From a virus: a stretch of 32,183 nt of DNA. The notes under the pieces were generated by a model, which saw nothing but the letters and a program-made list of their open reading frames with translations, searched no databases and was not told the origin of the DNA. The position numbers and the translations under genes were made by a program. Positions 1 through 32,183 of this stretch are shown here, piece by piece; within the stretch, counting starts at the first letter, position 1, and each line of letters starts with the position of its first letter. The DNA lies in IMG/VR virus record IMGVR_UViG_3300017752_000078. One strand, written 5' to 3'.

Positions 1-123
1 AAACGTTTGGTAATTCAGGGGACGCCATCGTGGTTGTTATGGACATCAGCGAACGGTGCCCCCTGTACTCTTTAATAGGCCAGTGTGTTGGGGTTCTCCC
101 TCACCTGACTGTGTATATTATAC
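1..123. repeat. Direct terminal repeat, left copy, identical to 32061..32183
   Basis: Comparing the two window ends base by base shows the first 123 nt (aaacgtttgg...gtgtatattatac) repeated exactly at the end. This indicates either a true DTR or the overlap of a circular assembly. Confidence 0.95.
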
Positions 124-2198: not shown

Positions 2199-2226
2199 AG
2201 TATAGCATATATGGTAAATGCGTCAA
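2199..2226 (-). promoter_or_regulatory. sigma70-type promoter P5 (TTGACG-16-TATACT, TGC extended -10)
   Basis: The minus strand reads CTGGTTGACGCATTTACCATATATGCTATACTGATAATATG. Its spacer is paralogous to those of P2 and P4 (TTACCA core). Confidence 0.6.
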
Positions 2227-2253
2227 CCAGGCAAAAAGTCGCATAAAATGGGC

Positions 2254-2280
2254 AAAAAAAAGCCCCCAATCAAGGGGGCT
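2254..2280 (-). terminator. Rho-independent terminator
   Basis: The minus strand reads AGCCCCC-TTGATT-GGGGGCT followed by T8. Confidence 0.85.
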
Positions 2281-2353
2281 TATAGAAAGTAAGAAAGAAT
2301 AAAAAAAGTTATTCTTTCTACAAGATCAAAGCGGATTAGCACTCCCTTGTATT
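2254..2353 (-). ncRNA. Candidate small RNA of about 100 nt, running from promoter P6 to the terminator
   Basis: No ORF with a usable start. Three predicted hairpins: TACAAG/CTTGTA; the 11-bp AGAAAGAATAA/TTATTCTTTCT (2292..2319); and the terminator hairpin. A pyrimidine-rich single-stranded stretch (UACUUUCUAUA) lies between the last two. Confidence 0.45.
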
Positions 2354-2359
2354 ACTTTA

Positions 2360-2387
2360 ATAATAACACAGAAATAGGATGCGTCAA
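2360..2387 (-). promoter_or_regulatory. sigma70-type promoter P6 (TTGACG-16-TATTAT, TGT extended -10)
   Basis: The minus strand reads CAGTTGACGCATCCTATTTCTGTGTTATTATTAAAG. Confidence 0.55.
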
Positions 2388-2458
2388 CTGGCGAATGAGC
2401 CGCATAAGTTGGGGGTTTTTGGTGGTACCGTACAACCTGTGAGTGAGATCTACTTGGG

Positions 2459-2516
2459 AAAAAGGGGCGGACTTCATAGGATATATGGCATATACAGACT
2501 AAACAGTGCCGCCCCA
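2459..2516 (-). terminator. Candidate terminator: long hairpin plus T5
   Basis: The minus strand reads GGGGCGG(c)ACT ... AGTCCGCCCC followed by TTTTTCCC. The 7-10 bp GC stem encloses an inner TATAT-GCC-ATATA hairpin. Confidence 0.4.
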
Positions 2517-2935
2517 AGGGGTGTCTAAAATGTCATTTTAGAACTGCGTCCAGGTGACTTATAAGTCAAACATTCTGCAAGGAGTGTAAAGACAACACCC
2601 TGACGCAGTCGTATTTATGAGTGGTGATCTGTGACGGGTTTCAAAGGCGGCCACGCCACCTGAAGATTCGCCGTGCTCATCTTCATTTTTTTCTTTGTGG
2701 GAAGACTCTATGTAGATAGGAAGATCAGAGTCCACCTGTTTCCAGGTGGTGACACTATGTGAGTTAGGTTAGTCGTCATCCAGATGTTTCCTTGTGCGGG
2801 TGGCATTGATCCTTGCCGTACATCATCGTTTTGTTTAAACCTGGCTGGTGGTCAGTCCAAGTCCCGCTCTGCCATAATGAATTGTGCCTGTTGACTGTCG
2901 CGTTCTTGCTGGTGAGTGCTCCGCGTTGTGGTGTC

Positions 2936-2958
2936 TGTGTTTGCCTGTGTTTGCCTGT
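2936..2958. repeat. Tandem 10-bp repeat (tgtgtttgcc, 2.3 copies)
   Basis: Read directly as ctgtgtttgcctgtgtttgcctgt. On the minus strand this is ACAGGCAAAC ACAGGCAAAC ACAG, at the predicted 5' end of the P9 transcript. Confidence 0.8.
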
Positions 2959-2964
2959 ATCACA

Positions 2965-2994
2965 AGTATATATCCTAAACACCTGAAATGTCAA
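2965..2994 (-). promoter_or_regulatory. sigma70-type promoter P9 (TTGACA-16-TATATA or TTGACA-18-TATACT)
   Basis: The minus strand reads CCATTGACATTTCAGGTGTTTAGGATATATACTTGTG. Confidence 0.5.
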
Positions 2995-3052
2995 TGGTTA
3001 TTGGTTTGGTTGGTAGGGTTTGGTCTCTGCTTTGGTCTTCAAAGCACCAAAA

Positions 3053-3247
3053 TCACCAAAACCACCTTACCAGTTTTTTGGATTCCAATTTATGACTTTT
3101 GACACGACGACTGATGTGATAAGAGAAGACGCAGTAGTGCCAAGGATCACCAGGACATTTCACACTGCCTTTGCCTGAACCGTTCTTGGTGTCACAACGC
3201 CAGTGGCCAAGTTGGCGTACGATCTCAAGGAACCTGTCCTGTCTCAT
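3053..3247 (-). CDS. Small Cys/His/Trp-rich protein, hypothetical
   Basis: 64-aa ORF. Its ATG overlaps the stop of the J-like gene (TAATG coupling). It contains HWRC...KCPGDPWHYC. Confidence 0.45.
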   Translation of the reverse strand: MRQDRFLEIVRQLGHWRCDTKNGSGKGSVKCPGDPWHYCVFSYHISRRVKSHKLESKKLVRWFW

Positions 3248-5118
3248 TATGAGGCTATGGTGTGTCCAGTCACTGCCACGAAGTTGGATCGCCTGTCCAG
3301 TTCGTTCCTGGCCGCCACCCTCACGTCGTAGTTGCTACCTGTCAGGACCCCCTGTATGAAGAACTCCGTGTCGTTGGTGATGCCCGCCGTGGTGAATGTT
3401 GAATCTGAACTCAGTTTGAATTGCACGATGTATTCAGTGGTGAAAGGATCAGTGGACGCCGTCCAACTGGCCTTCAATCTAACGATGGTGCTGTTTGATG
3501 ACAGATATCCGCCTGTGTTGACATTTAGATTCTGTGCTGAACCTGACGCCAAGGCGAGACCACTGGGTGCCGCCACCGTGAATGGGTCAGGTAGGCTGGT
3601 TGTTGGTCTGGTGTAGTTGGTGCCTGAACCGTCTATGGCGTATGCACCTGACTGGTGCTCCAGTGCTGTTATCTCTATGTTGCCTGCGGTGTTGAGACGC
3701 ATATCCATTATCCTGAATACAGCGTCAAGGCTGAGGTTTGAATTCTGTACCCTTATCAGGTCGCCAACCGCGGTGTTTGACGTGGCCAGGTTTGTGGCGA
3801 AACTGACCAATTTCTCTGAACGTGATCTCCTCACGAAGACCCTGGCGTACTGCTCAGCGATCCGCCTGTCAGCGATGGTTGGCAGTGTGATCCGCTTCTC
3901 CAATCTTATGCTGTTGTCCTGTGACAGGAATGTGTTGTCGTCACTGCTACCTATGTCAGGGAAGGCCACCTCGTTGGGTTCGTAGTTGGCCGTGTTGTCT
4001 ATGTAGGTGACCACACACCTGTTGCATTTGTGTTGTTTTGATTCTCCCTCTATCTGCATACCGCCAATGATGTGATCATTGGTCACCGTGAAAACTGTGG
4101 TTGGTGATGCTGGCGTGGCAGTTATGTCCGTGTCGTCTCCCCCATTCTCAACCTTGAGGAAATACTTGCCCTGCTGGTATGGCATTATGCCCCTGAAACC
4201 TGCCAGGATGATCTTGCAGTTGCTCATCAGGTTGTTGGCTGTGTCTATGACCGCATCACAGGTGAATGCCCTGGATGTGTCTGCGTTGCTATAGGTGACC
4301 ATCGTGAAACATTGGTCAGCCGCTGATTTGAAACTGGTCCAGTCAAAAACATCGTTTTCAAGTCCCTTGCCGTACCTGTCATTCCGTAGGTAGTCCACCA
4401 ACACGTTCACAGGATTCTGTGAATATGCCCGTGTGTCTGATGCGTAGGCCGTGTTGTATGATGCAGGGTTTATGCCCGTGACATCTAAAATCTTCTTGCC
4501 CTGTATCTGGATCCTGATCTGCGGAACGCCACCTGAGTAGGGATTGTTGTCCGCGTCTTCCTGTGTCTCAATCTTCTTCCATTCAAATCTCAATGCGATG
4601 TAGCACAGTCCCCTTAATCTGTGATTAGAAGTCCAGTTGGGTGCTTCCTGTAATAATGTTGAGACAGTCTGGTCGTCCCTGCCATCAAAGAACTGTGCCT
4701 TCAATCTGTCCTTGTACCTGCCTGATCCCACTGTGGCCTGTACACCGTGTGCGTATGAACTCAATGTGATCTCGTTGTTGTCTATGAATAATTTTGTCAT
4801 CGCGTTGCACTGACCTTCACTCAACACCATCGCCACATATAGATATTGATTGGTGGTGCCGTTGGTGGATGTGAATACTCTTGTGCCGCCAACCTGTCTC
4901 TCGCCGTACACCACTGGTATCTCCTTGACCGCACCTTCTTGGTTGAGCAGTACACCCTGTATGGCCTGTGTCTGATCCTGTCCTATGTCGTAGTCTGGTA
5001 CATCTGTGCTGGCACCAAAAGGTGATGTCACTGCTGAAACCACACCGCTGATGACCTTGCCAACTCCCTTGACCACGCCCTTGACCGCCTTGGTGATTGA
5101 TCTTACTACTCCGCCCAT
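3247..5118 (-). CDS. Lambda gpJ / GTA g15-like tail-tip (host-specificity) protein with a C-terminal fibronectin-III-like domain
   Basis: Its motifs parallel lambda J: NPVNVLVDYLRNDRYGKGL (lambda has ...LTHPRYGMGKRL) and FTCDAVIDTANNLMSNCKIILAGFRG (lambda has ITCNAYLTTQRKAWDVLSDFCSAM). The C-terminus is FN3-like (EYIVQF...YDVRVAARN). I prefer the ATG at 5118 (MGGVVRSITK...), which overlaps the stop of the upstream gene by 13 nt. Confidence 0.9.
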   Translation of the reverse strand: MGGVVRSITKAVKGVVKGVGKVISGVVSAVTSPFGASTDVPDYDIGQDQTQAIQGVLLNQEGAVKEIPVVYGERQVGGTRVFTSTNGTTNQYLYVAMVLSEGQCNAMTKLFIDNNEITLSSYAHGVQATVGSGRYKDRLKAQFFDGRDDQTVSTLLQEAPNWTSNHRLRGLCYIALRFEWKKIETQEDADNNPYSGGVPQIRIQIQGKKILDVTGINPASYNTAYASDTRAYSQNPVNVLVDYLRNDRYGKGLENDVFDWTSFKSAADQCFTMVTYSNADTSRAFTCDAVIDTANNLMSNCKIILAGFRGIMPYQQGKYFLKVENGGDDTDITATPASPTTVFTVTNDHIIGGMQIEGESKQHKCNRCVVTYIDNTANYEPNEVAFPDIGSSDDNTFLSQDNSIRLEKRITLPTIADRRIAEQYARVFVRRSRSEKLVSFATNLATSNTAVGDLIRVQNSNLSLDAVFRIMDMRLNTAGNIEITALEHQSGAYAIDGSGTNYTRPTTSLPDPFTVAAPSGLALASGSAQNLNVNTGGYLSSNSTIVRLKASWTASTDPFTTEYIVQFKLSSDSTFTTAGITNDTEFFIQGVLTGSNYDVRVAARNELDRRSNFVAVTGHTIAS

Positions 5119-5597
5119 AGCCAATGTCCTTTCGTGTGTTGTCGTGTAATTCTCTTGATCTTGTGTTTTGTTGATCGTGCCCAGTATATTGGTCTGTTGG
5201 CACCCATCATCCTGACACTGTGATTCTTCAACCATTTCATAACATAGAACGCATCACGTGATGCCACGAAATCAATGTAGCACAGGTTGAATCCTGTGAT
5301 CCAATCCAATGTGTGTATCTTGCCTGTGGTGGTGAATTTGTGTAGCACCTGGTTGCTCATAAATGCCCAATTGGCGAAACCCCATATCTCACCATTTGTT
5401 TGGAAAACTTTGTATTGGTTATTCTTGATTGAAGGATGGATGTGTTGCCATAGGTCCACATAGGTCAAATGGTTATAACGATCAAACTTCAAATAGAAGT
5501 CAATCACATCATTCGTGATGCTTTTGATGGTGTTTGCTCCAACACAGACGCCTGTATATGCGTCAGGAATCTGTTTTGGGTATCTTTGCCTATCCAT
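5106..5597 (-). CDS. RTX-toxin-activating lysine-acyltransferase (HlyC/RtxC/ApxC, TAAT family)-like protein
   Basis: Pattern match to HlyC as I recall it. HPSIKNNQYKVFQTNGEIWGFANWAFMS compares with LPAIQANQYVLLTRDDYPVAYCSWANLS, and LDWITGFNLCYIDFVA with EDWTSGDRKWFIDWIAPFG. Candidate catalytic His (RYNHLTY) and Asp (YIDF) are 66 residues apart, against 70 in HlyC. The ATG at 5597 has the SD GGGAGA and overlaps the upstream stop. Confidence 0.7.
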   Translation of the reverse strand: MDRQRYPKQIPDAYTGVCVGANTIKSITNDVIDFYLKFDRYNHLTYVDLWQHIHPSIKNNQYKVFQTNGEIWGFANWAFMSNQVLHKFTTTGKIHTLDWITGFNLCYIDFVASRDAFYVMKWLKNHSVRMMGANRPIYWARSTKHKIKRITRQHTKGHWLWAE

Positions 5598-6048
5598 TGA
5601 TTTTTTTCTCCCAAACAAAGTCAATCTGGTTGTAGTCTTGACCGTGTAGTATGTTTAATTTTGTGTCGTTGTCGCACAGTAGACTTTGGTCTGTGGTCTG
5701 TATCTTCTCACAGTGGTTTGCCTGTGCCACTGCCTGTGCGTCTCTGAATAACGACGCATATATCTCCTTGGTCCTGTGATTAGGTGTCAGGTGTATCAAT
5801 GTGAACAGTCCCTGTGTCCTGTGGTTCCAAGGCAGGTTGTGTAGTTGTAGGATGTAGAAACCCACCATCGCATCATTGTCATAGATGCACCTGACCACGT
5901 TGCTGTTTAAAGACACCAATCGTTTCATATGCACGTTCCAATTCTGTTTGTCAAATTCTGTGTCAACGAAACCTCTTTCAAACACCGCCTTGTAAGCCAA
6001 TTCGTTGAAGTCGTTGAAATCTTTTATGTGAAAGTCTCTGATCTGCAT
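5590..6048 (-). CDS. GNAT-fold acyltransferase-like protein (divergent)
   Basis: The secondary-structure pattern is typical of GNAT: MQIRDFHIKDF...; DNDAMVGFYIL; LFTLIHLTPNHRTKEIYASLFRDAQAVAQANHCEKIQ; LNILHGQDY. The pyrophosphate-binding motif is degenerate. The ATG at 6048 overlaps the upstream stop (TAATG). Confidence 0.55.
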   Translation of the reverse strand: MQIRDFHIKDFNDFNELAYKAVFERGFVDTEFDKQNWNVHMKRLVSLNSNVVRCIYDNDAMVGFYILQLHNLPWNHRTQGLFTLIHLTPNHRTKEIYASLFRDAQAVAQANHCEKIQTTDQSLLCDNDTKLNILHGQDYNQIDFVWEKKING

Positions 6049-6629
6049 TATTTCCTGCCCCATTTTATGTCTTTCACTATCTCTGCTGAGAAGTTCATAC
6101 CAAGGTCGCCACTAAACACGCTCTGTTGGCTGGCATCGTTGGTCCTCCTGCCACTCTTCCTCTCAAAGTCTGCGAACAGACTGGCCACCGTCATCGTCAC
6201 TGTGGCTGTTGAATCCGTTTCCTTGATGCTGTAATTCATAATCCTGCCATCAAACACAGTGAACACGTCATCTGATGTGAAACTGTAATCGCTGTCAAGG
6301 ATCGCCCTGTAGATGACCACACGTTTGTTCATATAGTTGTTGTTCAACAACAGTGCCACTGTGGTGGTGTCAACAGCGGTGAATGTTAGATCAACCTGTC
6401 CAACTCTCAGGTCTGAACTCTCCGTGATGTTGCTGAAGTACAGGAATTGACCCTGTGCCAGGTATGTGTTTGCACCTGAGTCAGGTGCTGTGTTGCTGTC
6501 AAAGTCTATGTCTATGTTTGAACTTGTGAAATACAGGCTACTTGAAAGATGTAGTTCTATGAGATCTACACCAAATACGGATCTGGCCGCTAATTTAGTT
6601 TCTAAAGAAGATGCTAACTGCCTTGCCAT
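6048..6629 (-). CDS. Tail hub / lambda gpL- or GTA g13-like minor tail protein (tentative)
   Basis: 193-aa ORF, called from its position between the Dit-like and J-like genes. It is beta-rich, and its start uses TAATG coupling. Confidence 0.5.
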   Translation of the reverse strand: MARQLASSLETKLAARSVFGVDLIELHLSSSLYFTSSNIDIDFDSNTAPDSGANTYLAQGQFLYFSNITESSDLRVGQVDLTFTAVDTTTVALLLNNNYMNKRVVIYRAILDSDYSFTSDDVFTVFDGRIMNYSIKETDSTATVTMTVASLFADFERKSGRRTNDASQQSVFSGDLGMNFSAEIVKDIKWGRK

Positions 6630-7216
6630 TAGATCTCCTCATTGACTTTTATCTGATATTGGAACTTGCCATCAGTGCTTGATTTGTACTGGATGTTGTC
6701 GCCTGTTAGGTACACCTTGAATGGTACGTTGTCATAGATGACGGTTGTGGAATTTGTAATGCCTGTCACCAAGGGTGGATAGAAACTGATGGCGTCATTG
6801 GTTCCTGATATCGTCACATCTGCCGTGACCATATACACCTTTGTGTGATTTGAGAATTTGATGAGATCACCTTTCTTGAGTGTGCCTGAACCACCGTCCG
6901 TCTGACACGCACCCTGTCCCGCGGCCACTGTGGCATCGTTTGTGAGTGTGCCACTTGCTGTGCCCCTCGCATCCGTGACCACTGGTGGTACGATTGTGAA
7001 TGTGTCCGCCTGGCCATTCTGTGTGACCAAGAACGCATAATCACTCATCACGTCCGCCCTGTCCTTCTTTGGTGATTTGAGACTGAAACTCCAATACTGT
7101 GATCCAGTCTGGAGTCTCTGTGTCTTGCCAGATACGCTCACTGATGTCCTGGTGTTGGTGTTGCTTGTGAAATCTAAAGTTTGGAAACCTGCTGTTGATG
7201 GAAATGTACCTGACAT
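6629..7216 (-). CDS. Distal tail protein (Dit)-like minor tail protein
   Basis: 195-aa ORF immediately after the tape measure, with TAATG coupling. The call rests on position and a beta-sandwich-like composition. Confidence 0.55.
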   Translation of the reverse strand: MSGTFPSTAGFQTLDFTSNTNTRTSVSVSGKTQRLQTGSQYWSFSLKSPKKDRADVMSDYAFLVTQNGQADTFTIVPPVVTDARGTASGTLTNDATVAAGQGACQTDGGSGTLKKGDLIKFSNHTKVYMVTADVTISGTNDAISFYPPLVTGITNSTTVIYDNVPFKVYLTGDNIQYKSSTDGKFQYQIKVNEEI

Positions 7217-9237
7217 TATGCTGTTAAACTCCTTCTGCCTCGTTCAGCAAGACCTCTGTTGATCAATCCTATGATCAGGTCTTGTCTTGTAGTTAGTAGT
7301 GTGTCAAAGTCCGTGGCATCAATCGTGCTGATGTTGAAAGACACGTTGGTTGTTCCTGTGCCTGCCTCGTCCATTGGTGTGACGTTGGCTGGTCCTGACA
7401 CCAACTCTGGTCCCTGCTCTCCAACCACGCCAAACTGGCCTGACTGGATCCTACCACCGTCTGCGAAGAAACCTCCAAAGATGCTACCAACTATTGAACC
7501 TACTGGTCCAAACATACTGCCAGCGGCCTGCATAATGGCTTGATTCCTCAATGACTTGCTGAGTGCGTCTGCCTCACGTCTTGCATTTTTTATTTTCTCA
7601 GCCATCACGTCAAAAACGAAGATCTGTAATCCCAGTTGTACGACACCTGATATCAGTTGCCTTAGGACATTCTGTGCGAGATCACTCAATGACTCCTTGA
7701 AACTCTTGGCTCCCATTATGGCGTCTGCGAATGCGTCACCAATGCCCTGTTTCAGTGATCCAAAAACCTGTTTGGTAAGTCCAACCGCGAGGTCTATGGC
7801 TGAAAATTTCTCTTGTGCTGTTTCAAAGGTCTTGCCCAGGGCCTCCTTGTAGTCATCAACCGCTTTGGTCTGTTTCTTGGTCGTGTCCACATCTTTTTCT
7901 GCAGATGCGATTTTGTCATCAATGTTCTTCTTGGTCTTCTTCTGTAATGCTTCTTCTTCCCTCAATGATTTTAGGAATTCAAGTATGGCTGTGGTGTTCT
8001 CTCCGTAGGCATTCGCGTTCTCGCCCACTGTCTCTATCATCTGGTCTATTGATTGGACAGTCTTGCTTGACTCGTTGCCAACCCCTTTGAATTTTTTCCT
8101 CAATGCGTCCGCTTCCTTCTTCATTGATATCGCATTCTTCCGCATATTCTTTGCGGCGGTTTTCATTCCCAATGCGTCATAGAACTTGGCCACCTTTTCC
8201 TTGCCCTTGGCTATGAAATCAATCAGTCCAGCGAAAATGCCCACTATCTTGTCAGACACACCCGCGATCACGGCTACGATCAATTTGCCCTTTATACCCA
8301 GTGCGAGGAAACCAACCACACCCAAGGCCTTGATGTATCCTGGCAGTGAGTTGGTTGCGTTGACTATGTTGTTGAATGCACGTTGGAAGAAATCAATAAC
8401 TGGTTTAATTGCGTCAATGGCCATAGCACCACCAATCAGTGTCTTCTCAAACCCAGTCACGATGGCCTGTCCAAATCCCTGTGCGGCCTTCTCTATGTTG
8501 TCAAAATTATTTGTTATCGCTTTGTCAAAAACACCAACGATCGCCTTCAACCTATCAAATGGTCCTGCGTCTGATATTATCTTCTTGATGTTGAAGAACT
8601 TATCCTGTACCATTGATTGAAGTCCATCAAAGTTGTTGGCCAATGCCACGGCCGCCCCAGCGAACTCACCTCCTGGTCCAAAGACCCTGTCAAATGCTTC
8701 TGCTGTCTCTTTGGTGGTGACCTTGACACCATCCTTGAATCCAAGTAGTGCCTTGATACCTCTTTCCCTCAACAGGTCCGCGGCAGATATACCACCTGAT
8801 AAGGCCCTCTGGATCTGTTCTCCAGCAAGTCTGAAATCAAGACCTGATATGGCGGCCACGTTGGCCGTCAGTTGTAAATTTTTTCCTAATTCTTCTGCGT
8901 CTTTTGATACCACGGCCAAGTTACCTGATGCGGCCGCTATCTCTTCAAGTGTGAATGGTACGGTTCCAGCGAACTTGCTCAACGTCTCAAATGCCTTGGC
9001 ACCTTCTTCCGCTGATCCAAACAAGAACTTGAACCTGGTCTGTAGGTTCTCTACCTGTCGTCCAACGTTGATGACGCTCTGGCCAAACTTGCCAATTCCT
9101 ATACCAACCAATGCTCCTGCCGCCAACCTGGCCGCAGTTCCCAGGCCGCCAAGGCTCCCCCTCATCCTGTCAAGGTTTCTGTTTGCCTTCTCTACCTGTC
9201 TACTGTCCGCTTTTAGGACAATGTTTGCATCTGCCAT
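7216..9237 (-). CDS. Tape measure protein
   Basis: 673 aa, Ala/Gly/Lys-rich and helical, with hydrophobic central segments. The C-terminal motif GGRIQSGQFGVVGEQGPELV is typical of TMPs. It follows the chaperone genes. Confidence 0.9.
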   Translation of the reverse strand: MADANIVLKADSRQVEKANRNLDRMRGSLGGLGTAARLAAGALVGIGIGKFGQSVINVGRQVENLQTRFKFLFGSAEEGAKAFETLSKFAGTVPFTLEEIAAASGNLAVVSKDAEELGKNLQLTANVAAISGLDFRLAGEQIQRALSGGISAADLLRERGIKALLGFKDGVKVTTKETAEAFDRVFGPGGEFAGAAVALANNFDGLQSMVQDKFFNIKKIISDAGPFDRLKAIVGVFDKAITNNFDNIEKAAQGFGQAIVTGFEKTLIGGAMAIDAIKPVIDFFQRAFNNIVNATNSLPGYIKALGVVGFLALGIKGKLIVAVIAGVSDKIVGIFAGLIDFIAKGKEKVAKFYDALGMKTAAKNMRKNAISMKKEADALRKKFKGVGNESSKTVQSIDQMIETVGENANAYGENTTAILEFLKSLREEEALQKKTKKNIDDKIASAEKDVDTTKKQTKAVDDYKEALGKTFETAQEKFSAIDLAVGLTKQVFGSLKQGIGDAFADAIMGAKSFKESLSDLAQNVLRQLISGVVQLGLQIFVFDVMAEKIKNARREADALSKSLRNQAIMQAAGSMFGPVGSIVGSIFGGFFADGGRIQSGQFGVVGEQGPELVSGPANVTPMDEAGTGTTNVSFNISTIDATDFDTLLTTRQDLIIGLINRGLAERGRRSLTA

Positions 9238-24919: not shown

Positions 24920-27900
24920 TTAACTGTATGTTGGTCCAAGCGTCCAGTAGAAAGTGTTGCTTGATCCGTTGTATCTTGAAAATATGTAAACCGTCTGTAT
25001 GTCGTTCGCACTACTTACTGAACTTGTGCTTGTGCCATTGGCGAACTTGAATGTCTCGCCGCCCGTGGCAGAGAAAGTCACGCCCCTTGCTCCTGATCCG
25101 TCTTGGACCAGATAGAGTGTGATACCCACTGACTGCTTGGCGTTGGTTGGGAAGTTGCTCATAGTGAATCCTGTGATGTTCGCTCCCAATGTGATCGTCT
25201 GTAGGTTACCGTTGGCCCAGTCTATGGTGTAGGCACCGTTTGAACTGTGTGTGGTGTTGTAAGAGTATTCGTCAAACTTCTCAACAGCACCAATCCTACT
25301 CCTCACTGAATCATCAGTGGTGTATAGGAAATATGGATCGTTGGTGTAAGTGGTGTTTGAGTTACCCTCTGACCTGTCGTGGGCGTAATACAACCCATAA
25401 GAGTTGGTCACCGTCATTGTTGAATTGTTGTATTGGTAGGCCACTGGACCACCAAGGTCTATACCATATGCGTTGGTTATCGTGCCGTTGATGCCATCAA
25501 ACTCCGCTGGTGAGTATATTCTAAGGCCTCTGGCGTTGGTGCTATTGATGGTTTTGTTGGTGCCTGTATAGTCGTAGAAGTAATTGTAGAGTGAACTGGC
25601 TGAACTGTTTCCAAGTGTAGCGGCGTCTGAACTGCTGTTGGTGATGTCATTACCTATATTGCCCGCGATTGGTCCCCTTGAACCACCTGAGTTGGTCACC
25701 GCCGTGCCGTTTAGGTCAATGTCGCCCAGCACATTCAAAGTTCTTAATCGTGCGTTGCTTGAACTGGAGTCCGTGCCATCAAGTTTCAATCTAAGGACTG
25801 CGGTGTTACCATACAGCCTCTTGCTACCCGCCGTGTGTGACAGGTCCTCGTAGTAGAGCATATTTGTGTTGTCAAACCTGTTGGCACTTGTGGAATTGAT
25901 GTTGCTGATGTCACCACCGTTACCTTTTAGAATTACGGCACCTGTGCCTGATGTGCCCAGTTCCATATCCGCGTTGGAACTGGTCGTGCTCATATTGTTG
26001 CCCGTGAAAGTGAAGTCACCCGTTGATGCTGAACCACCACTGCCTGATATCGTTATTGTTTTGGTCGCTCCTGTTCCAGATGCCGTCACACCTGAACCAA
26101 CGAAGTTGATCGTTGTGGCCGCCGTTGACAGTGCTGAACCTTCGTCCTGGACGGTTATGCTACTGCCTCCACCGCCACCTGAGTTGGCATCAACATATGC
26201 TTTGATAGATTGTTGTGTTGCAAGTTGTGTGGCACTATTTGAAGCCATATTGTCTTCGTCAAGTATCGCTGTGCCTGATACACCTGTGTTTAAGACAGGT
26301 GATGTTAAAGTTTTATTTGTCAATGTCTGTGTTGCCGCTGTTCCAACAATCTCTTGATCACCGCCTGCTGGCAATGTCAATGTGTTCGTGACTGAAGCAC
26401 TATGTGGTTGTGCTTTGACTGTCTGTCCGTGTGAGTTGTTCTCACAGTTTAAGACTATCGTGCCTGGATTCGTGTTGCCTTTGACCACGACCTTACCTGT
26501 TCCATTCGCCGCCAATTCAATGTCAGCATTTGAAGTAGTGACAATGTCGTTGCCGTTAAGGTCAAGGTTGCCACCCAGTTGTGGTGATGAGTCTTCTGAA
26601 ACATTGTTAATGGAAACTGCCTGTGCCCTCGCATCCGTGTAGTACAGGTTTGATGAGCCTTCACTTACTGTGTCAGTGTTGCCTTGTGTGTATGTGAGCA
26701 CACCTGTTGAACTGTTGTATGCCAGTTGTGTTGAGTTCTCTGAAATGGCCGCCCTTGCTCTGGCATCCGTGAAATACAGGTTTGATGAACCTTCTGTGAT
26801 CTCATCTGAATTATCTTTCGTGGCTATTTGTGTTGCTATGTAGGCCTTGATTGATTGTTGTGATGCTGTGTTTGTGGCACTATCTGAACTGAAATTGTCT
26901 TCATCCAATATGTTGTTTGCTATTCTGGCATCTGCCCTTGCATTCGTGAAGTAAAGGTTGCTTGATCCTTCACTGACTGTGTCTGTGTCACCCTGTGTGT
27001 ACGTGAGTGCACCAGTTGAACTGTTGTATGATATATTGCCTGATGCTGAAATGCTTGACCTTGCTCTTGCCGTCGTGTGGTAAAGATTAGTTGATCCTTC
27101 ACTGACATCGTCAGTGTCTCCACTCAATTCACCCAATGCGTCTTTGGTCGCCACTTGGGCATCTACATATGCCTTGACAGATTGCTGTGATGGTACGTGG
27201 GTAGCACTATTTGAAGCAAAATTGTCTTCGTCTTTGAGTGCATTCGTTATTCTTGCATCTGCTCTGGCATTTGTGAAATATAGATTCGTTGAACCTTCTG
27301 TTATCTCGTCTGAATTATCTTTTGTGGCTATCTGTGCATCAACATATGTCTTGATTGCTTTAGCAGAAGCGATTGTGTCGTCTGAACCACTAACACTTGA
27401 TATGTCTGTGTCTAAAACACCTGACTTCAGGTCTGCGACATCAATGTTTGAAATGCTGTTTCCTGTGCCTTCAACATCAAATGTTTTGTTTGTCAATGTT
27501 GTTGTTGAACTGCCAGTTATGAAAGAACTTAGATCAGGTCCTGTTATGGTGACCGTGTCACCTGACACTGCTGTGGTTATGTTCGTGCCACCTGCTATCT
27601 TGATGTTGTCATTGTCCTTGGCACTGAACGTGACACCAGATGAATCATCTCCAACGACCGTGATGTTTGAATCTGTTAGGAAACCTGCACCATTTGTCAG
27701 TTGGTTGTTGTTGCTTGGTATCGTTGGTGTGCCAGAAAGGTCTGAATAAGCACCTGATGTGGCCACTGTGTTCAAACCTAAGTTTGTCGCGGCATTTGTT
27801 TTCTGTGTGGAAGTCAATCCTTGGTTGTTGACATCTATCCTTAATCTGTTGCCCAATGCTGAACTTGTTGTTGTGGCGAAGTTGGCGTCATCTCCCAATG

Positions 27901-29446
27901 CTGATGCCAATTCATTCAATGTGTTCAAGGCACTTGGTGCTGAATCCACAACGCCTGCCACCTCTGCGTCAACGTATGCTTTCACTGACTGCTGTGATGG
28001 AACCTGTGTCGCTGAATTTGAAGACATATTGTCTTCATCTACGATGGCATTTGATACCCTGGCATCTGCCCTGGCGTTTGTGAAATATAAATTGCTTGAT
28101 CCTTCACTTACCGTGTCTGTGTCACCCTGTGTGTATGTGAGTGCACCTGTTGAACTGTTATAACCTATGCTACCTGAAGCACTTATGGCAGATCTTGCCC
28201 TTGCTGTTGTGTGGTAAAGGTTAGTTGAACCTTCACTGACATCGTCAGTGTCTCCACTCAATTCACTCAATGCGTCTTTGGTCGCCACTTGTGCATCAAC
28301 ATAAGTTTTGATTGCTTTGGCACTTGCTATGGTGTCGTCTGAACCACTAACACTTGAGATGTCTGTGTCCAATACACCTGATTTGAGATCAGCAACATCT
28401 ATGTTTGAAATACTGTTGCCTGTTGCTTCTACGTCAAAAGTTTTGTTTGTCAATGTCAATGTGTCTGATGCTATCGCGGCATCTTGGGCATCAACATATG
28501 CTTTGACTGACTGCTGTGATGGTGGTCTTGATGCTGAATCTGTAGAGAAGTTGTCTTCATCTATCAAACTCAAATCACCTGCGTCAACATATGCCTTGAC
28601 TGACTGTTGTGATGGTACGTGGGTCGCACTGTCACTGGCCATATTGTCTTCATCTTTGATTGCGTTCGTGATTCTGGCGTCTGCCCTGGCATTAGTGAAA
28701 TATAAATTCGTAGATCCTTCACTTACATCATCAGTGTCACCTGATAGTTCGCCCAAAGCGTCTTTGGTAGCCACTTGGCTGTCAACATATGCTTTGACTG
28801 ATTGCTGTGATGGTATTTTAGTGGCACTGTCTGATGCCATATTGTCTTCGTCAAGCAACGCATTGGTTATCCTTGCGTCCGCTCTTGCATTTGTGAAATA
28901 TAGATTAGAAGAACCTTCAGTTATCTCGTCTGTGTTGTCTTTGCCAGCCACCTGTGCGTCAACGTATGTCTTGATCGCCTTGGCTGAAGCCAATGTGGTG
29001 TCAGTGCCTGCCACTGAACTGATGTCTGTGTCTAAAACACCTGATTTAAGATTGTCTACTTCTATGTTTGAAACTGTGTTGTTGTCAGCGTCTATGGTCT
29101 TGTTTGTTAGTGTGGTAGAACTTGAGGCTGTAAGGTATGTTGATAGATCAGGACCAGTTAGGGTCAGTGTGTCACCACTTACTGCCGCCGTGATATTCTG
29201 TGTACCTGCTATCTTGAATGTCTCGTTTTGGCTTACCGTTGTGCCCGTTGAATCATCACCAACGAAAGTTATGCCCGCCGTGTCGCCTTCTGATGCATAG
29301 CCAAGGCTCTGCCAGTTGCTTGAACCTGTTCCTATCTTGAATCTATTTGTGTCTGATTCCCAACCAAACTCACCTGCGGCCAACGTTGGGTTGTTTGAAG
29401 TCCAATTTGATGCCGTGTCTCTTCTTAATTGTATCTGTGTAGCCAT
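24920..29446 (-). CDS. Giant repeat-built tail fibre protein
   Basis: 1508 aa. The N-terminus IQLRRDTASNWTSNNPTLAAGEFGWESDTNRFKIGTG is the classic fibre/hyaluronidase-type N-terminal motif. It also has SAPSALNTLNELASALGDDANFAT, many EGSSNLYFT and DEDNMASDSAT..SQQSVKAYVD repeats, and a C-terminal tip domain related to that of 22243..23091. Confidence 0.9.
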   Translation of the reverse strand: MATQIQLRRDTASNWTSNNPTLAAGEFGWESDTNRFKIGTGSSNWQSLGYASEGDTAGITFVGDDSTGTTVSQNETFKIAGTQNITAAVSGDTLTLTGPDLSTYLTASSSTTLTNKTIDADNNTVSNIEVDNLKSGVLDTDISSVAGTDTTLASAKAIKTYVDAQVAGKDNTDEITEGSSNLYFTNARADARITNALLDEDNMASDSATKIPSQQSVKAYVDSQVATKDALGELSGDTDDVSEGSTNLYFTNARADARITNAIKDEDNMASDSATHVPSQQSVKAYVDAGDLSLIDEDNFSTDSASRPPSQQSVKAYVDAQDAAIASDTLTLTNKTFDVEATGNSISNIDVADLKSGVLDTDISSVSGSDDTIASAKAIKTYVDAQVATKDALSELSGDTDDVSEGSTNLYHTTARARSAISASGSIGYNSSTGALTYTQGDTDTVSEGSSNLYFTNARADARVSNAIVDEDNMSSNSATQVPSQQSVKAYVDAEVAGVVDSAPSALNTLNELASALGDDANFATTTSSALGNRLRIDVNNQGLTSTQKTNAATNLGLNTVATSGAYSDLSGTPTIPSNNNQLTNGAGFLTDSNITVVGDDSSGVTFSAKDNDNIKIAGGTNITTAVSGDTVTITGPDLSSFITGSSTTTLTNKTFDVEGTGNSISNIDVADLKSGVLDTDISSVSGSDDTIASAKAIKTYVDAQIATKDNSDEITEGSTNLYFTNARADARITNALKDEDNFASNSATHVPSQQSVKAYVDAQVATKDALGELSGDTDDVSEGSTNLYHTTARARSSISASGNISYNSSTGALTYTQGDTDTVSEGSSNLYFTNARADARIANNILDEDNFSSDSATNTASQQSIKAYIATQIATKDNSDEITEGSSNLYFTDARARAAISENSTQLAYNSSTGVLTYTQGNTDTVSEGSSNLYYTDARAQAVSINNVSEDSSPQLGGNLDLNGNDIVTTSNADIELAANGTGKVVVKGNTNPGTIVLNCENNSHGQTVKAQPHSASVTNTLTLPAGGDQEIVGTAATQTLTNKTLTSPVLNTGVSGTAILDEDNMASNSATQLATQQSIKAYVDANSGGGGGSSITVQDEGSALSTAATTINFVGSGVTASGTGATKTITISGSGGSASTGDFTFTGNNMSTTSSNADMELGTSGTGAVILKGNGGDISNINSTSANRFDNTNMLYYEDLSHTAGSKRLYGNTAVLRLKLDGTDSSSSNARLRTLNVLGDIDLNGTAVTNSGGSRGPIAGNIGNDITNSSSDAATLGNSSASSLYNYFYDYTGTNKTINSTNARGLRIYSPAEFDGINGTITNAYGIDLGGPVAYQYNNSTMTVTNSYGLYYAHDRSEGNSNTTYTNDPYFLYTTDDSVRSRIGAVEKFDEYSYNTTHSSNGAYTIDWANGNLQTITLGANITGFTMSNFPTNAKQSVGITLYLVQDGSGARGVTFSATGGETFKFANGTSTSSVSSANDIQTVYIFSRYNGSSNTFYWTLGPTYS
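26612..29266. repeat. Intragenic nested segmental duplications in the giant fibre gene
   Basis: aa 161-250 and aa 701-790 align almost identically at an offset of exactly 540 aa (1620 nt). Motif counts: 9 copies of (S/T)EGS(S/T)NLY(F/H/Y)T, 7 of DEDN(M/F), 7 of QQS(V/I)KAY and 3 of SAKAIKTYVDAQ. Confidence 0.85.
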
Positions 29447-32060: not shown

Positions 32061-32183
32061 AAACGTTTGGTAATTCAGGGGACGCCATCGTGGTTGTTAT
32101 GGACATCAGCGAACGGTGCCCCCTGTACTCTTTAATAGGCCAGTGTGTTGGGGTTCTCCCTCACCTGACTGTGTATATTATAC
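32061..32183. repeat. Direct terminal repeat, right copy, identical to 1..123
   Basis: Exact match to 1..123 by direct comparison. Confidence 0.95.

What the first reader, a model, noticed from the sequence alone, without database searches (positions are those of the whole stretch)
5106..6048. Two coupled GNAT-fold acyltransferases, one HlyC/RtxC-type, embedded in the tail-tip module
Between the hub-like gene (6048..6629) and the J-like tip gene (3247..5118), lambda-like tails carry K/I and GTA-like tails carry an NlpC/P60 peptidase. Here that slot holds two overlapping genes instead. One is a divergent GNAT-fold protein (5590..6048). The other is a protein of about 163 aa (5106..5597) that follows the RTX toxin-activating acyltransferase signature: P.I..NQY......WA..S ... 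DW..G....IDfvA, with candidate catalytic His and Asp at HlyC-like spacing. All four genes are chained by overlapping stop/start codons (TAATG, ATGGATAG, ATGGGCGGAGTAG). That implies co-translation and co-assembly with the tip complex, not a randomly inserted moron. TAAT enzymes are known only as acyl-ACP-dependent lysine fatty-acylases of secreted RTX protoxins. A phage copy wired into the tail-tip operon suggests lipidation of a virion protein (tip protein or tape measure) to aid membrane insertion during DNA delivery. Alternatively it could be an injected effector that modifies a host protein. I know of no description of either.
Basis: partly seen in the sequence, partly recalled or inferred. 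Interest (0 to 1): 0.85.

Follow-up and report, generated by a model that had tools for sequence, protein, structure and literature searches.

The report
Phage tail-tip acyltransferase gene pair
A marine phage carries two acyltransferase genes inside its tail-tip operon, one related to the enzymes that attach fatty acids to bacterial toxins, which suggests (without proof) that the phage attaches a lipid to its own tail tip.

Summary
Gene B (5106..5597, minus strand) passes Pfam's HlyC/TAAT threshold, and its predicted fold matches ApxC best. Gene A (5590..6048) is a divergent GNAT-fold protein. Both lie between the hub gene and the J-like gene.

The arrangement hub, [A], B, J recurs in about 75 of 79 related viral contigs sampled. 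Both genes are under strong purifying selection.

- The catalytic His of TAATs is missing. Its column holds a near-invariant Tyr. The catalytic Asp, and an Arg shared with the four aligned TAATs, are kept.
- TAATs are not restricted to RTX toxins. CdiC lipidates the receptor-binding domain of CdiA.
- The gene is already annotated as "toxin-activating lysine-acyltransferase" in pelagiphages HTVC026P, HTVC111P and HTVC112P. No function has been discussed for it.

B is absent from a sister clade with a near-identical tail tip, so it is accessory. The same slot holds other GNATs in related phages.

My best reading is late acylation of a tail-tip protein from host acyl-ACP. The best candidate substrate is the cationic amphipathic N-terminus of the J-like protein. 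This is inferred, not shown. I found no lysine whose presence tracks the presence of B.

The parts
5106..5597 (-). Gene B, 163 aa. A TAAT (HlyC/RtxC)-family homologue of a phage-specific branch that carries Tyr in place of the catalytic His.
   Evidence: Pfam PF02794 at 42.6 bits against a gathering score of 25. Foldseek top hit is ApxC 4WHN, TM 0.69. dN/dS is 0.04-0.14.
5475..5477 (-). Codon of Tyr41 of B, which sits in the alignment column of the TAAT catalytic His (HlyC His23).
   Evidence: The column is Tyr in 60 of 62 phage homologues and His in 4 of 4 reference TAATs. Among 100 library representatives it is Tyr in 59, which are the close relatives, and His in 30, which are distant and of typical TAAT length.
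5271..5273 (-). Codon of Asp109 of B, which sits in the column of the TAAT catalytic Asp (HlyC FIDWIAP).
   Evidence: The column is Asp in 44 and Glu in 18 of 62 phage homologues. It also aligns with ApxC in phmmer.
5590..6048 (-). Gene A, 152 aa, with a possible alternative start at 6063. A divergent GNAT-fold protein of the phrog_1249 type.
   Evidence: No Pfam hit. phrog_1249 at E 9e-12. AlphaFold2 pLDDT 87, and Foldseek finds 635 PDB matches with E <= 0.001, the top 50 listed being GNAT acetyltransferases (TM 0.62-0.78). The motif-A loop has no glycines (HRTKEIY). dN/dS is 0.04-0.10.
6048..6629 (-). Tail hub protein, N-terminal part. It resembles lambda gpL and the N-terminus of T5 pb3.
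   Evidence: phrog_2048 at E 3e-31. tblastn hits 'minor tail protein L' and 'baseplate hub' annotations.
6629..7216 (-). Distal tail protein.
   Evidence: Pfam DTP-pb9 B domain and phrog_1302 at E 3e-26.
7216..9237 (-). Tape measure protein, 673 aa.
   Evidence: ORF and position. The syntenic gene is annotated as tape measure protein in HTVC026P, HTVC112P and DSL-LC06.
3247..5118 (-). J-like central fibre / hub protein, 623 aa.
   Evidence: Pfam Phage-tail_3 plus FN3. phrog_31 'central tail fiber J' at E 4e-52.
5017..5118 (-). N-terminal 34 residues of the J-like protein (MGGVVRSITKAVKGVVKGVGKVISGVVSAVTSPF). A cationic amphipathic segment and the candidate acylation substrate. This is inferred only.
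   Evidence: Hydrophobic moment 0.65, with 5 K+R and no D/E in the first 22 residues. None of 2000 shuffles reached that moment. Comparable segments exist in relatives.

Best explanation
A and B form an accessory cassette of two GNAT-superfamily acyltransferases. It occupies the variable slot between the hub gene and the J-like gene, where lambda has K and I. The window is a complete 32-kb marine phage genome of the HTVC111P-like group.

B belongs to a phage-specific branch of the toxin-activating acyltransferase (TAAT) family. This branch keeps the general-base Asp/Glu, an Arg shared with the four aligned TAATs (HlyC R120 column) and the substrate-side motifs. It replaces the catalytic His with an invariant Tyr. 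Tyr is the usual general acid of ordinary GNATs.

The most likely working, inferred and not shown, has three steps:
1. B is made late, together with the tail-tip proteins.
2. B takes a fatty acyl chain from host acyl-ACP and amide-links it to a lysine, or to the N-terminal amine, of a tail-tip protein. The best candidate is the lysine-rich amphipathic N-terminal segment of the J-like protein encoded immediately downstream.
3. The lipid helps that segment anchor in or insert into the host outer membrane at the start of infection. This would parallel CdiC lipidating the receptor-binding domain of CdiA.

A, a divergent GNAT, would add a second acyl or acetyl mark or assist B.
For: Shown:
- TAAT homology by profile and by fold.
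- Asp/Glu conserved in 62 of 62, Tyr in 60 of 62, Arg141 in 60 of 62, plus Q61, W77-A78, W99 and G102.
- Strong purifying selection on both genes.
- The same gene order, distal tail protein, hub, [A], B, J, in roughly 75 of 79 IMG/VR loci sampled. Protein identity to B ranges from 34% to 96%, and more than 514 viral stretches match in total.
- A always sits with B or with another GNAT in the same slot.
- Three different GNAT-superfamily lineages fill this one slot in related phages: the A type, a canonical PF00583 type and the TAAT type. This argues for selection of acyltransferase activity at this position, not random cargo.
- No separate promoter-like or terminator-like signals.
- The J-like N-terminus is a strongly amphipathic cationic segment.

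Precedent:
- CdiC, a TAAT, lipidates a surface receptor-binding protein. Its His-to-Ala mutant keeps partial activity, so loss of the His need not abolish catalysis (PMC8510554).
- Lambda gpI and the F7 pyocin hub-internal protein carry hydrophobic helices proposed to enter the outer membrane (PMC12874032).
Against: - No acylation has been observed, and the substrate is unknown.
- The canonical catalytic His is absent.
- B is absent from 63 of 78 loci whose hub proteins are 77-94% identical to that of HTVC202P. The tail tip therefore works without it.
- The loci that carry B form only about 2 clades, so covariation tests have little power.
- No Lys, or any other column, in the J-like, hub or distal tail proteins discriminates loci with B from loci without it.
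- Phages without B, and lambda J as I recall it, also have MG- and Lys-rich N-termini.
- Homologues of B also sit in early or replication regions of unrelated pelagiphages (HTVC103P, 104P, 115P; loci L055, L056). There the substrate cannot be a J-like protein.
Confidence: 0.35

Rival explanations
1. B (and A) are accessory enzymes whose target is not a virion protein. The target could be a host envelope or cytoplasmic protein, another phage protein, or a small amine. The tail-tip slot would simply be a tolerated insertion point in a tightly packed genome.
For: - Presence and absence differ between sister clades with near-identical tail tips.
- Homologues lie in early or replication regions of podovirus-type pelagiphages and in L055/L056.
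- No covarying Lys was found in the tail-tip proteins.
- A and B have slightly lower GC (42-43%) than their neighbours (46-51%).
- Overlapping junctions occur genome-wide.
Against: - The slot is filled again and again by GNAT-superfamily enzymes, not by diverse cargo.
- The position is stable from 34% to 96% protein identity.
- Late co-expression with tail genes is poor timing for host takeover.
- No own promoter or terminator signal was found.
Confidence: 0.3
2. A and/or B are catalytically inactive. They would serve as assembly factors or structural parts of the tail tip, functional stand-ins for lambda K/I or the GTA g14 protein.
For: - The canonical TAAT His is lost in B.
- The motif-A loop of A lacks the usual glycines, and A has no Pfam GNAT hit.
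- Both occupy the slot of assembly proteins.
Against: - The Asp/Glu, Tyr and Arg at active-site columns are near invariant, which is unexpected for a dead enzyme.
- The same family occurs outside tail operons.
- Sister phages build the same tip without it.
- The DSL-LC06 protein in this slot passes the Pfam GNAT threshold.
Confidence: 0.15
3. B and/or A are packed in the tail tip and delivered into the host as effectors. Once inside, they would modify a host protein at the moment of infection.
For: Their position lies among genes whose products sit in or near the tail lumen. No direct evidence supports it.
Against: - There is no targeting or fusion to tail proteins.
- The proteins are folded, of 150-160 aa, with no tape-measure-like or ejection-protein features.
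- The homologues in early regions are not tail-linked.
- PADLOC finds no relation to known defence systems.
Confidence: 0.08

Closest known systems
CdiC, the lysyl acyltransferase of class IV contact-dependent inhibition loci (TAAT family; PMC8510554)
   Same: Same protein family (Pfam HlyC). It is encoded next to a large surface or delivery protein that must engage a Gram-negative outer membrane. The proposed logic is the same: lipidate the cell-contacting part to anchor it in the target membrane.
   Different: CdiC has the His37/Asp107 dyad, whereas the phage branch has Tyr/Asp(Glu). The CdiC substrate and its lipid (3-hydroxydecanoate on Lys1467) have been demonstrated. Nothing has been demonstrated for the phage protein.
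HlyC / ApxC / CyaC, the RTX toxin-activating acyltransferases (PDB 4WHN)
   Same: Profile match above the Pfam threshold and best structural match. Shared motifs are NQY, WA, DW..G and (I/V)D..(A/S), plus the Arg of the HlyC R120 column.
   Different: No RTX toxin or type I secretion genes are nearby. The proteins are shorter (130-165 aa against about 170). The catalytic His is replaced by Tyr. The context is a phage tail operon.
'Toxin-activating lysine-acyltransferase' genes annotated in pelagiphages HTVC026P gp47, HTVC111P and HTVC112P gp46 (GenBank MN698240, MN698245, MN698246)
   Same: Direct homologues with 35-43% identity, at the same position between the L-like hub gene and the J-like gene.
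   Different: Those phages have B only, with no gene A. Their B lacks the 26-residue N-terminal extension. Their genomes have about 31% GC against 46% here, so the hosts probably differ.
Lambda gpK/gpI and RcGTA g14, the occupants of the same slot in other long-tailed phages (from general knowledge)
   Same: Same position in the tail-tip operon, between the hub (L-like) gene and the central fibre (J-like) gene.
   Different: No sequence or fold relation: neither A nor B shows an NlpC/P60, MPN or gpI-like domain. In Roseobacter phage CRP-6 the slot holds a DUF6950 protein instead.
Phage DSL-LC06 'glucosamine 6-phosphate N-acetyltransferase' (WKW35137; phrog_1249)
   Same: Same PHROG as gene A and the same slot between the hub and J-like genes. 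hhalign aligns the beta4-alpha3 region, including the shared P-x-x-R-x-K stretch.
   Different: It passes Pfam PF00583, which gene A does not. It stands alone, without a TAAT-like partner.

Membership tests
TAAT / HlyC family (Pfam PF02794) | Sequence profile match above the curated threshold | tested here: met
   42.6 bits against a gathering score of 25, E 6.9e-11. The pelagiphage homologues score 49-62 bits.
TAAT / HlyC family (Pfam PF02794) | ApxC-like fold | tested here: met
   The AlphaFold2 model (pLDDT 75.8) finds 4WHN chains as its three top PDB hits, with E 1e-7 and TM 0.66-0.69. The next hits are ordinary GNATs with E above 1e-3.
TAAT / HlyC family (Pfam PF02794) | Catalytic Asp (HlyC FIDWIAP; CdiC Asp107) | tested here: met
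   Window D109. The column is D in 44 and E in 18 of 62 phage homologues.
TAAT / HlyC family (Pfam PF02794) | Catalytic His (HlyC His23, ApxC His24, CdiC His37) | tested here: not met
   The column is Tyr in 60 of 62 phage homologues (window Y41). The nearby H43 is His in only 23 of 62. Among 100 library representatives the column is Tyr in the close relatives and His in the distant ones.
TAAT / HlyC family (Pfam PF02794) | Acyl-ACP-dependent acylation of an internal Lys of a partner protein | not testable with these tools
   This needs biochemistry or mass spectrometry.
TAAT / HlyC family (Pfam PF02794) | Genetic linkage to an RTX toxin or CdiA substrate gene | tested here: not met
   The neighbours are tail-tip genes. 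The nearest analogue of a substrate gene is the J-like gene immediately downstream.
GNAT superfamily (gene A) | GNAT fold | tested here: met
   pLDDT 87. 635 PDB matches with E <= 0.001, the top 50 listed being GNAT acetyltransferases (TM 0.62-0.78).
GNAT superfamily (gene A) | Pfam GNAT profile match | tested here: not met
   The window protein has no hit. Only 3 of 21 homologues reach E 0.0045 for PF00583. phrog_1249 'acetyltransferase' is matched at E 9e-12.
GNAT superfamily (gene A) | Motif A pyrophosphate-binding loop, R/Q-x-x-G-x-G/A | tested here: not met
   The loop after beta4 reads HRTKEIY and has no glycine. R92 is invariant. The Pfam-positive DSL-LC06 protein has the same type of loop (YRNKYHA).
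Lambda K/I-type or GTA g14-type tail-tip slot proteins | NlpC/P60, MPN/JAB or gpI-like domain | tested here: not met
   No such Pfam, PHROG or NCBIfam hit for A or B.

The most novel reading that the evidence does not exclude
A large and globally abundant group of marine phages fatty-acylates its own tail-tip protein. The enzyme would be a Tyr-type TAAT drawing on host acyl-ACP, assisted in some lineages by a second GNAT. The tail tip would then carry a covalent lipid anchor that helps it engage or penetrate the host outer membrane. This would be the first lipidated bacteriophage virion protein and a third substrate class for TAATs.
Probability: 0.3. Interest if true: 0.85.

Novelty: new variant of a known kind. 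Interest (0 to 1): 0.58.

Why it matters
Covalent lipidation of a tailed-phage virion protein has not been described, as far as I know or could find.

If B acylates the tail tip, it would add a new way for phages to engage Gram-negative envelopes. It would also extend TAAT enzymes from toxins and CDI effectors to viruses. The phages concerned are among the abundant marine groups: more than 514 IMG/VR stretches match, and the group includes cultured pelagiphages.

Even without that, the Tyr-for-His branch is a natural test of the debated TAAT mechanism. The debate is between a covalent His intermediate and direct attack with a general acid.

The question can be tested now. Cultured phages that carry B (HTVC026P, 111P, 112P) and a cultured relative that lacks it (HTVC202P) both exist.

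Tried and rejected
- **Lysine covariation.** I looked for a Lys in the J-like (first 700 aa), hub or distal tail proteins that tracks the presence of B, among 78 loci with closely related hubs. I found none, and no discriminating column of any kind. The loci with B form only about 2 clades, so the test is weak.
- **N-terminal 'MG' of the J-like protein.** I considered it as a myristoylation-like signal. It is also present in phages without B and, from memory, in lambda J, so it is not informative. The third residue is G/S/K in loci with B and F/I/L/W in loci without it. That difference is confounded by phylogeny.
- **Relatedness of A and B.** hhalign of A against B finds no similarity, so they are not duplicates.
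- **Relation of A to the CRP-6 DUF6950 protein.** hhalign finds none. DUF6950 has no PDB sequence relative and no literature.
- **Wider search for A.** tblastn of A and of the DSL-LC06 GNAT against 50,697 phage records finds no further relatives. A profile search of 5.8 billion proteins finds nothing outside the same clade.
- **Locus search with a hub alignment.** It failed because the alignment is too divergent.
- **The ApxC structure paper.** I could not read it. The dyad assignments are taken from the CdiC paper.
- **Other searches.** PADLOC, NCBIfam, Rfam and tRNA searches gave nothing relevant.
Full report
**What is in the sequence**

All genes of the region are on the minus strand. In transcription order:

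| Gene | Coordinates | Evidence |
|---|---|---|
| Tape measure protein | 7216..9237 | ORF and synteny |
| Distal tail protein | 6629..7216 | Pfam pb9 B domain; phrog_1302 |
| Hub N-part | 6048..6629 | phrog_2048; related to 'minor tail protein L' and the N-terminus of T5 pb3 |
| Gene A | 5590..6048, 152 aa | see below |
| Gene B | 5106..5597, 163 aa | see below |
| J-like central fibre | 3247..5118 | Phage-tail_3 + FN3; phrog_31 |

The window is a complete phage genome. Its first 123 bases are repeated exactly at its end. It encodes a large terminase, a portal and a major capsid protein.

**Gene B**

- B matches Pfam PF02794 (HlyC, RTX toxin acyltransferase family) at 42.6 bits, above the gathering score of 25.
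- phmmer against PDB sequences finds ApxC as the best hit. The 'YIDFVAS' of B aligns on ApxC 'FIDWIAP'.
- An AlphaFold2 model built on 13 sequences has pLDDT 75.8. Residues 1-20 are disordered.
- With Foldseek, that model finds the three ApxC chains of 4WHN as top hits, at E about 1e-7 and TM 0.66-0.69. They are well separated from generic GNATs.

**The catalytic residues**

I confirmed my remembered E. coli HlyC sequence: it is 100% identical to annotated hlyC genes. I then fetched EhxC, a Ralstonia TAAT that lies next to a ShlB/FhaC-type transporter gene, and a Microbulbifer TAAT. These four were aligned with 62 distinct phage homologues.

| HlyC column | Reference TAATs | Phage homologues | Window residue |
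|---|---|---|---|
| Asp (FIDWIAP) | D in 4 of 4 | D in 44, E in 18 of 62 | D109 |
| His23 | H in 4 of 4 | Y in 60, F in 1, W in 1 of 62 | Y41 |

It is His in only 23 of 62.
- The placement agrees with the predicted helices: Y41 sits five residues before helix 2, as His23 does in HlyC.
- Other columns shared with the TAATs are near invariant: Q61, W77-A78, W99, G102 and R141 (the HlyC R120 column).
- A scan of 1.84 billion representative proteins gave 123 relatives. Of the 100 that are 110 residues or longer, the close ones carry Tyr (59) and the distant ones, which have the typical TAAT length, carry His (30).

B therefore belongs to a distinct Tyr-type branch of the family.

Conserved Asp/Glu, Tyr and Arg argue for a working active site, not a dead one. 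In ordinary GNATs a Tyr commonly serves as the general acid (general knowledge). In the direct-attack model for TAATs the His only protonates the leaving thiolate, and the His-to-Ala mutants of ApxC and CdiC keep partial activity (PMC8510554).

**Gene A**

- A has no Pfam hit and no PDB sequence relative.
- It matches phrog_1249 'acetyltransferase' at E 9e-12.
- Its AlphaFold2 model is confident (pLDDT 87). It matches 635 PDB chains at E <= 0.001; the top 50 listed are GNAT acetyltransferases (TM 0.62-0.78).
- The motif-A loop lacks the usual glycines (HRTKEIY), while many polar residues are invariant in the family.
- A and B are not detectably related to each other.
- Both genes are under strong purifying selection. 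dN/dS is 0.04-0.10 for close pairs, similar to the hub gene.

**Comparative genomics**

*Cultured phages.* tblastn against 50,697 phage records finds B only in Pelagibacter phages.
- In HTVC026P, 111P and 112P the homologue is already annotated as 'toxin-activating lysine-acyltransferase' or 'RTX toxin acyltransferase family protein'. It sits in the same place, between the L-like hub gene and the J-like gene.
- In HTVC103P, 104P and 115P it lies in an early or replication region.
- The preprint describing these phages lists HlyC only in a figure legend. Other literature searches found no discussion of it.

*IMG/VR.* More than 514 viral stretches encode relatives of B. I classified the neighbours in 79 fetched loci with HMMs for the neighbouring genes. 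Nearly all loci read distal tail protein, hub, [A], B, J.
- The clade of the window has A plus B, with B at 40-96% identity.
- The HTVC111P-type clade has B alone.
- Only L055 and L056 lack the tail context.

*Gene A.* A is confined to about 40 loci and is always in this slot. In three loci (L119-L121) an A-like gene of 34% identity is followed by a canonical Pfam GNAT instead of B.

*Other occupants of the slot.* The lake phage DSL-LC06 has a single phrog_1249 GNAT that passes Pfam. Roseobacter phage CRP-6 has a DUF6950 protein. HTVC202P has nothing.

*Presence and absence.* Among 78 loci whose hub is 77-94% identical to that of HTVC202P, 63 go straight from the hub gene to the J-like gene and 15 carry B. 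Those 15 fall in about two clades.

**What this means**

B, and the A+B pair, is a stable and selected but dispensable part of the tail-tip operon. It is not an essential structural protein.

Three separate GNAT-superfamily lineages recur in this one slot. This is the best argument that acyltransferase activity is wanted at this point of the operon, and that these genes are not arbitrary cargo.

At least 13 gene junctions in this genome overlap in the same way. There is, however, no promoter-like or terminator-like signal setting the pair apart.

**Mechanism**

The closest working analogue is CdiC, not HlyC. CdiC is a TAAT that attaches 3-hydroxydecanoate to a Lys of the CdiA receptor-binding domain, and the lipid improves binding to target cells (PMC8510554).

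By analogy, I propose that B uses host acyl-ACP late in infection to acylate a tail-tip protein. The candidate is the N-terminus of the J-like protein:
- It reads MGGVVRSITKAVKGVVKGVGKVISGVVSAV.
- It is cationic and strongly amphipathic, with a hydrophobic moment of 0.65 that none of 2000 shuffles reached.
- In the HTVC111P-type phages the equivalent segment is followed by a hydrophobic helix.
- These phages have no separate gpI-like gene. In lambda and the F7 pyocin, the hub-internal protein carries hydrophobic helices thought to enter the outer membrane (PMC12874032).

All of this is inference. I found no lysine whose presence tracks B. Phages without B have similar N-termini. The early-region homologues in podovirus-type pelagiphages must have another substrate.

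I therefore give the virion-lipidation reading about 0.35. The rivals are an accessory enzyme with a non-virion target (about 0.3), a non-catalytic assembly role (about 0.15) and an injected effector (under 0.1).

**Novelty and verdict**

The gene's existence and its family name are already in public annotation. Three things are not described:
- the Tyr-for-His branch of the family;
- the recurrent acyltransferase slot in the tail-tip operon, including the A+B pair;
- any function for these genes.

I rate it a new variant of a known kind, of moderate to good interest. It is testable at once, because cultured phages with and without the gene exist.

Noticed in passing
window 1-123 and 32061-32183: An exact 123-bp direct repeat sits at the two ends of the window. 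The window is therefore a complete, circularly closed or terminally redundant genome of 32,060 bp.
   Followed up: yes
whole window, compared with loci L001-L005: The window has 45.9% GC, and related A+B loci have 41-53%. The HTVC111P-type pelagiphage loci have 30-32%. The host is therefore probably not SAR11. Genes A and B (42-43% GC) are somewhat lower than their neighbours (46-51%).
   Followed up: partly
window about 2200-3050: An ORF-poor stretch of roughly 0.85 kb lies just downstream of the J-like gene and a 64-aa ORF. The GC-skew sign changes there. No Rfam family and no tRNA were found.
   Followed up: partly
window 24920-29446 (-): A 1508-aa ORF matches phrog_697 (structural protein) and phrog_1197 (tail protein). 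It is probably a giant fibre or structural protein.
   Followed up: no
protein clusters P0007 and P0017 (homologues of B and A): Both clusters list a longest contig of 104,430,999 bp. Phage DNA of this type seems to sit in a very large assembly record, possibly eukaryotic or concatenated.
   Followed up: no
L001, L002 (HTVC026P, HTVC112P) and bioRxiv 10.1101/2019.12.14.876532: The HTVC111P-type phages are described as podoviruses, and the preprint states that no SAR11 siphovirus is known. Yet they encode a full tape measure, distal tail protein, hub and J-like module typical of long non-contractile tails.
   Followed up: no
window 5520-5597 (residues 1-26 of B): B in the clade that also has A carries a conserved 26-residue N-terminal extension (MDRQRYPKQIPDAYTGVCVGANTIKS) with low model confidence. 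It is absent from B in phages without A. It may be a contact surface between A and B.
   Followed up: no
window 6048-6063: Gene A could start at the ATG at 6063 (MGQEIMQ...) instead of 6048. The upstream codons are constrained by the invariant C-terminal KWGRK of the hub gene in another frame, so conservation does not settle the question.
   Followed up: partly
L119-L121 (for example L121 3989-4892): A related lineage has two GNATs in the slot: an A-like protein and a canonical PF00583 GNAT in place of the TAAT-like gene. Its J-like N-terminus has lost nearly all lysines (GGLGDIIEKVVGGIGDLIGG). This is a single event, so it is only suggestive.
   Followed up: partly
L092 (Ralstonia solanacearum megaplasmid CP052129): A bacterial TAAT gene lies directly after a ShlB/FhaC-type two-partner secretion transporter gene. 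This is the CdiC-like arrangement, not the RTX arrangement.
   Followed up: no
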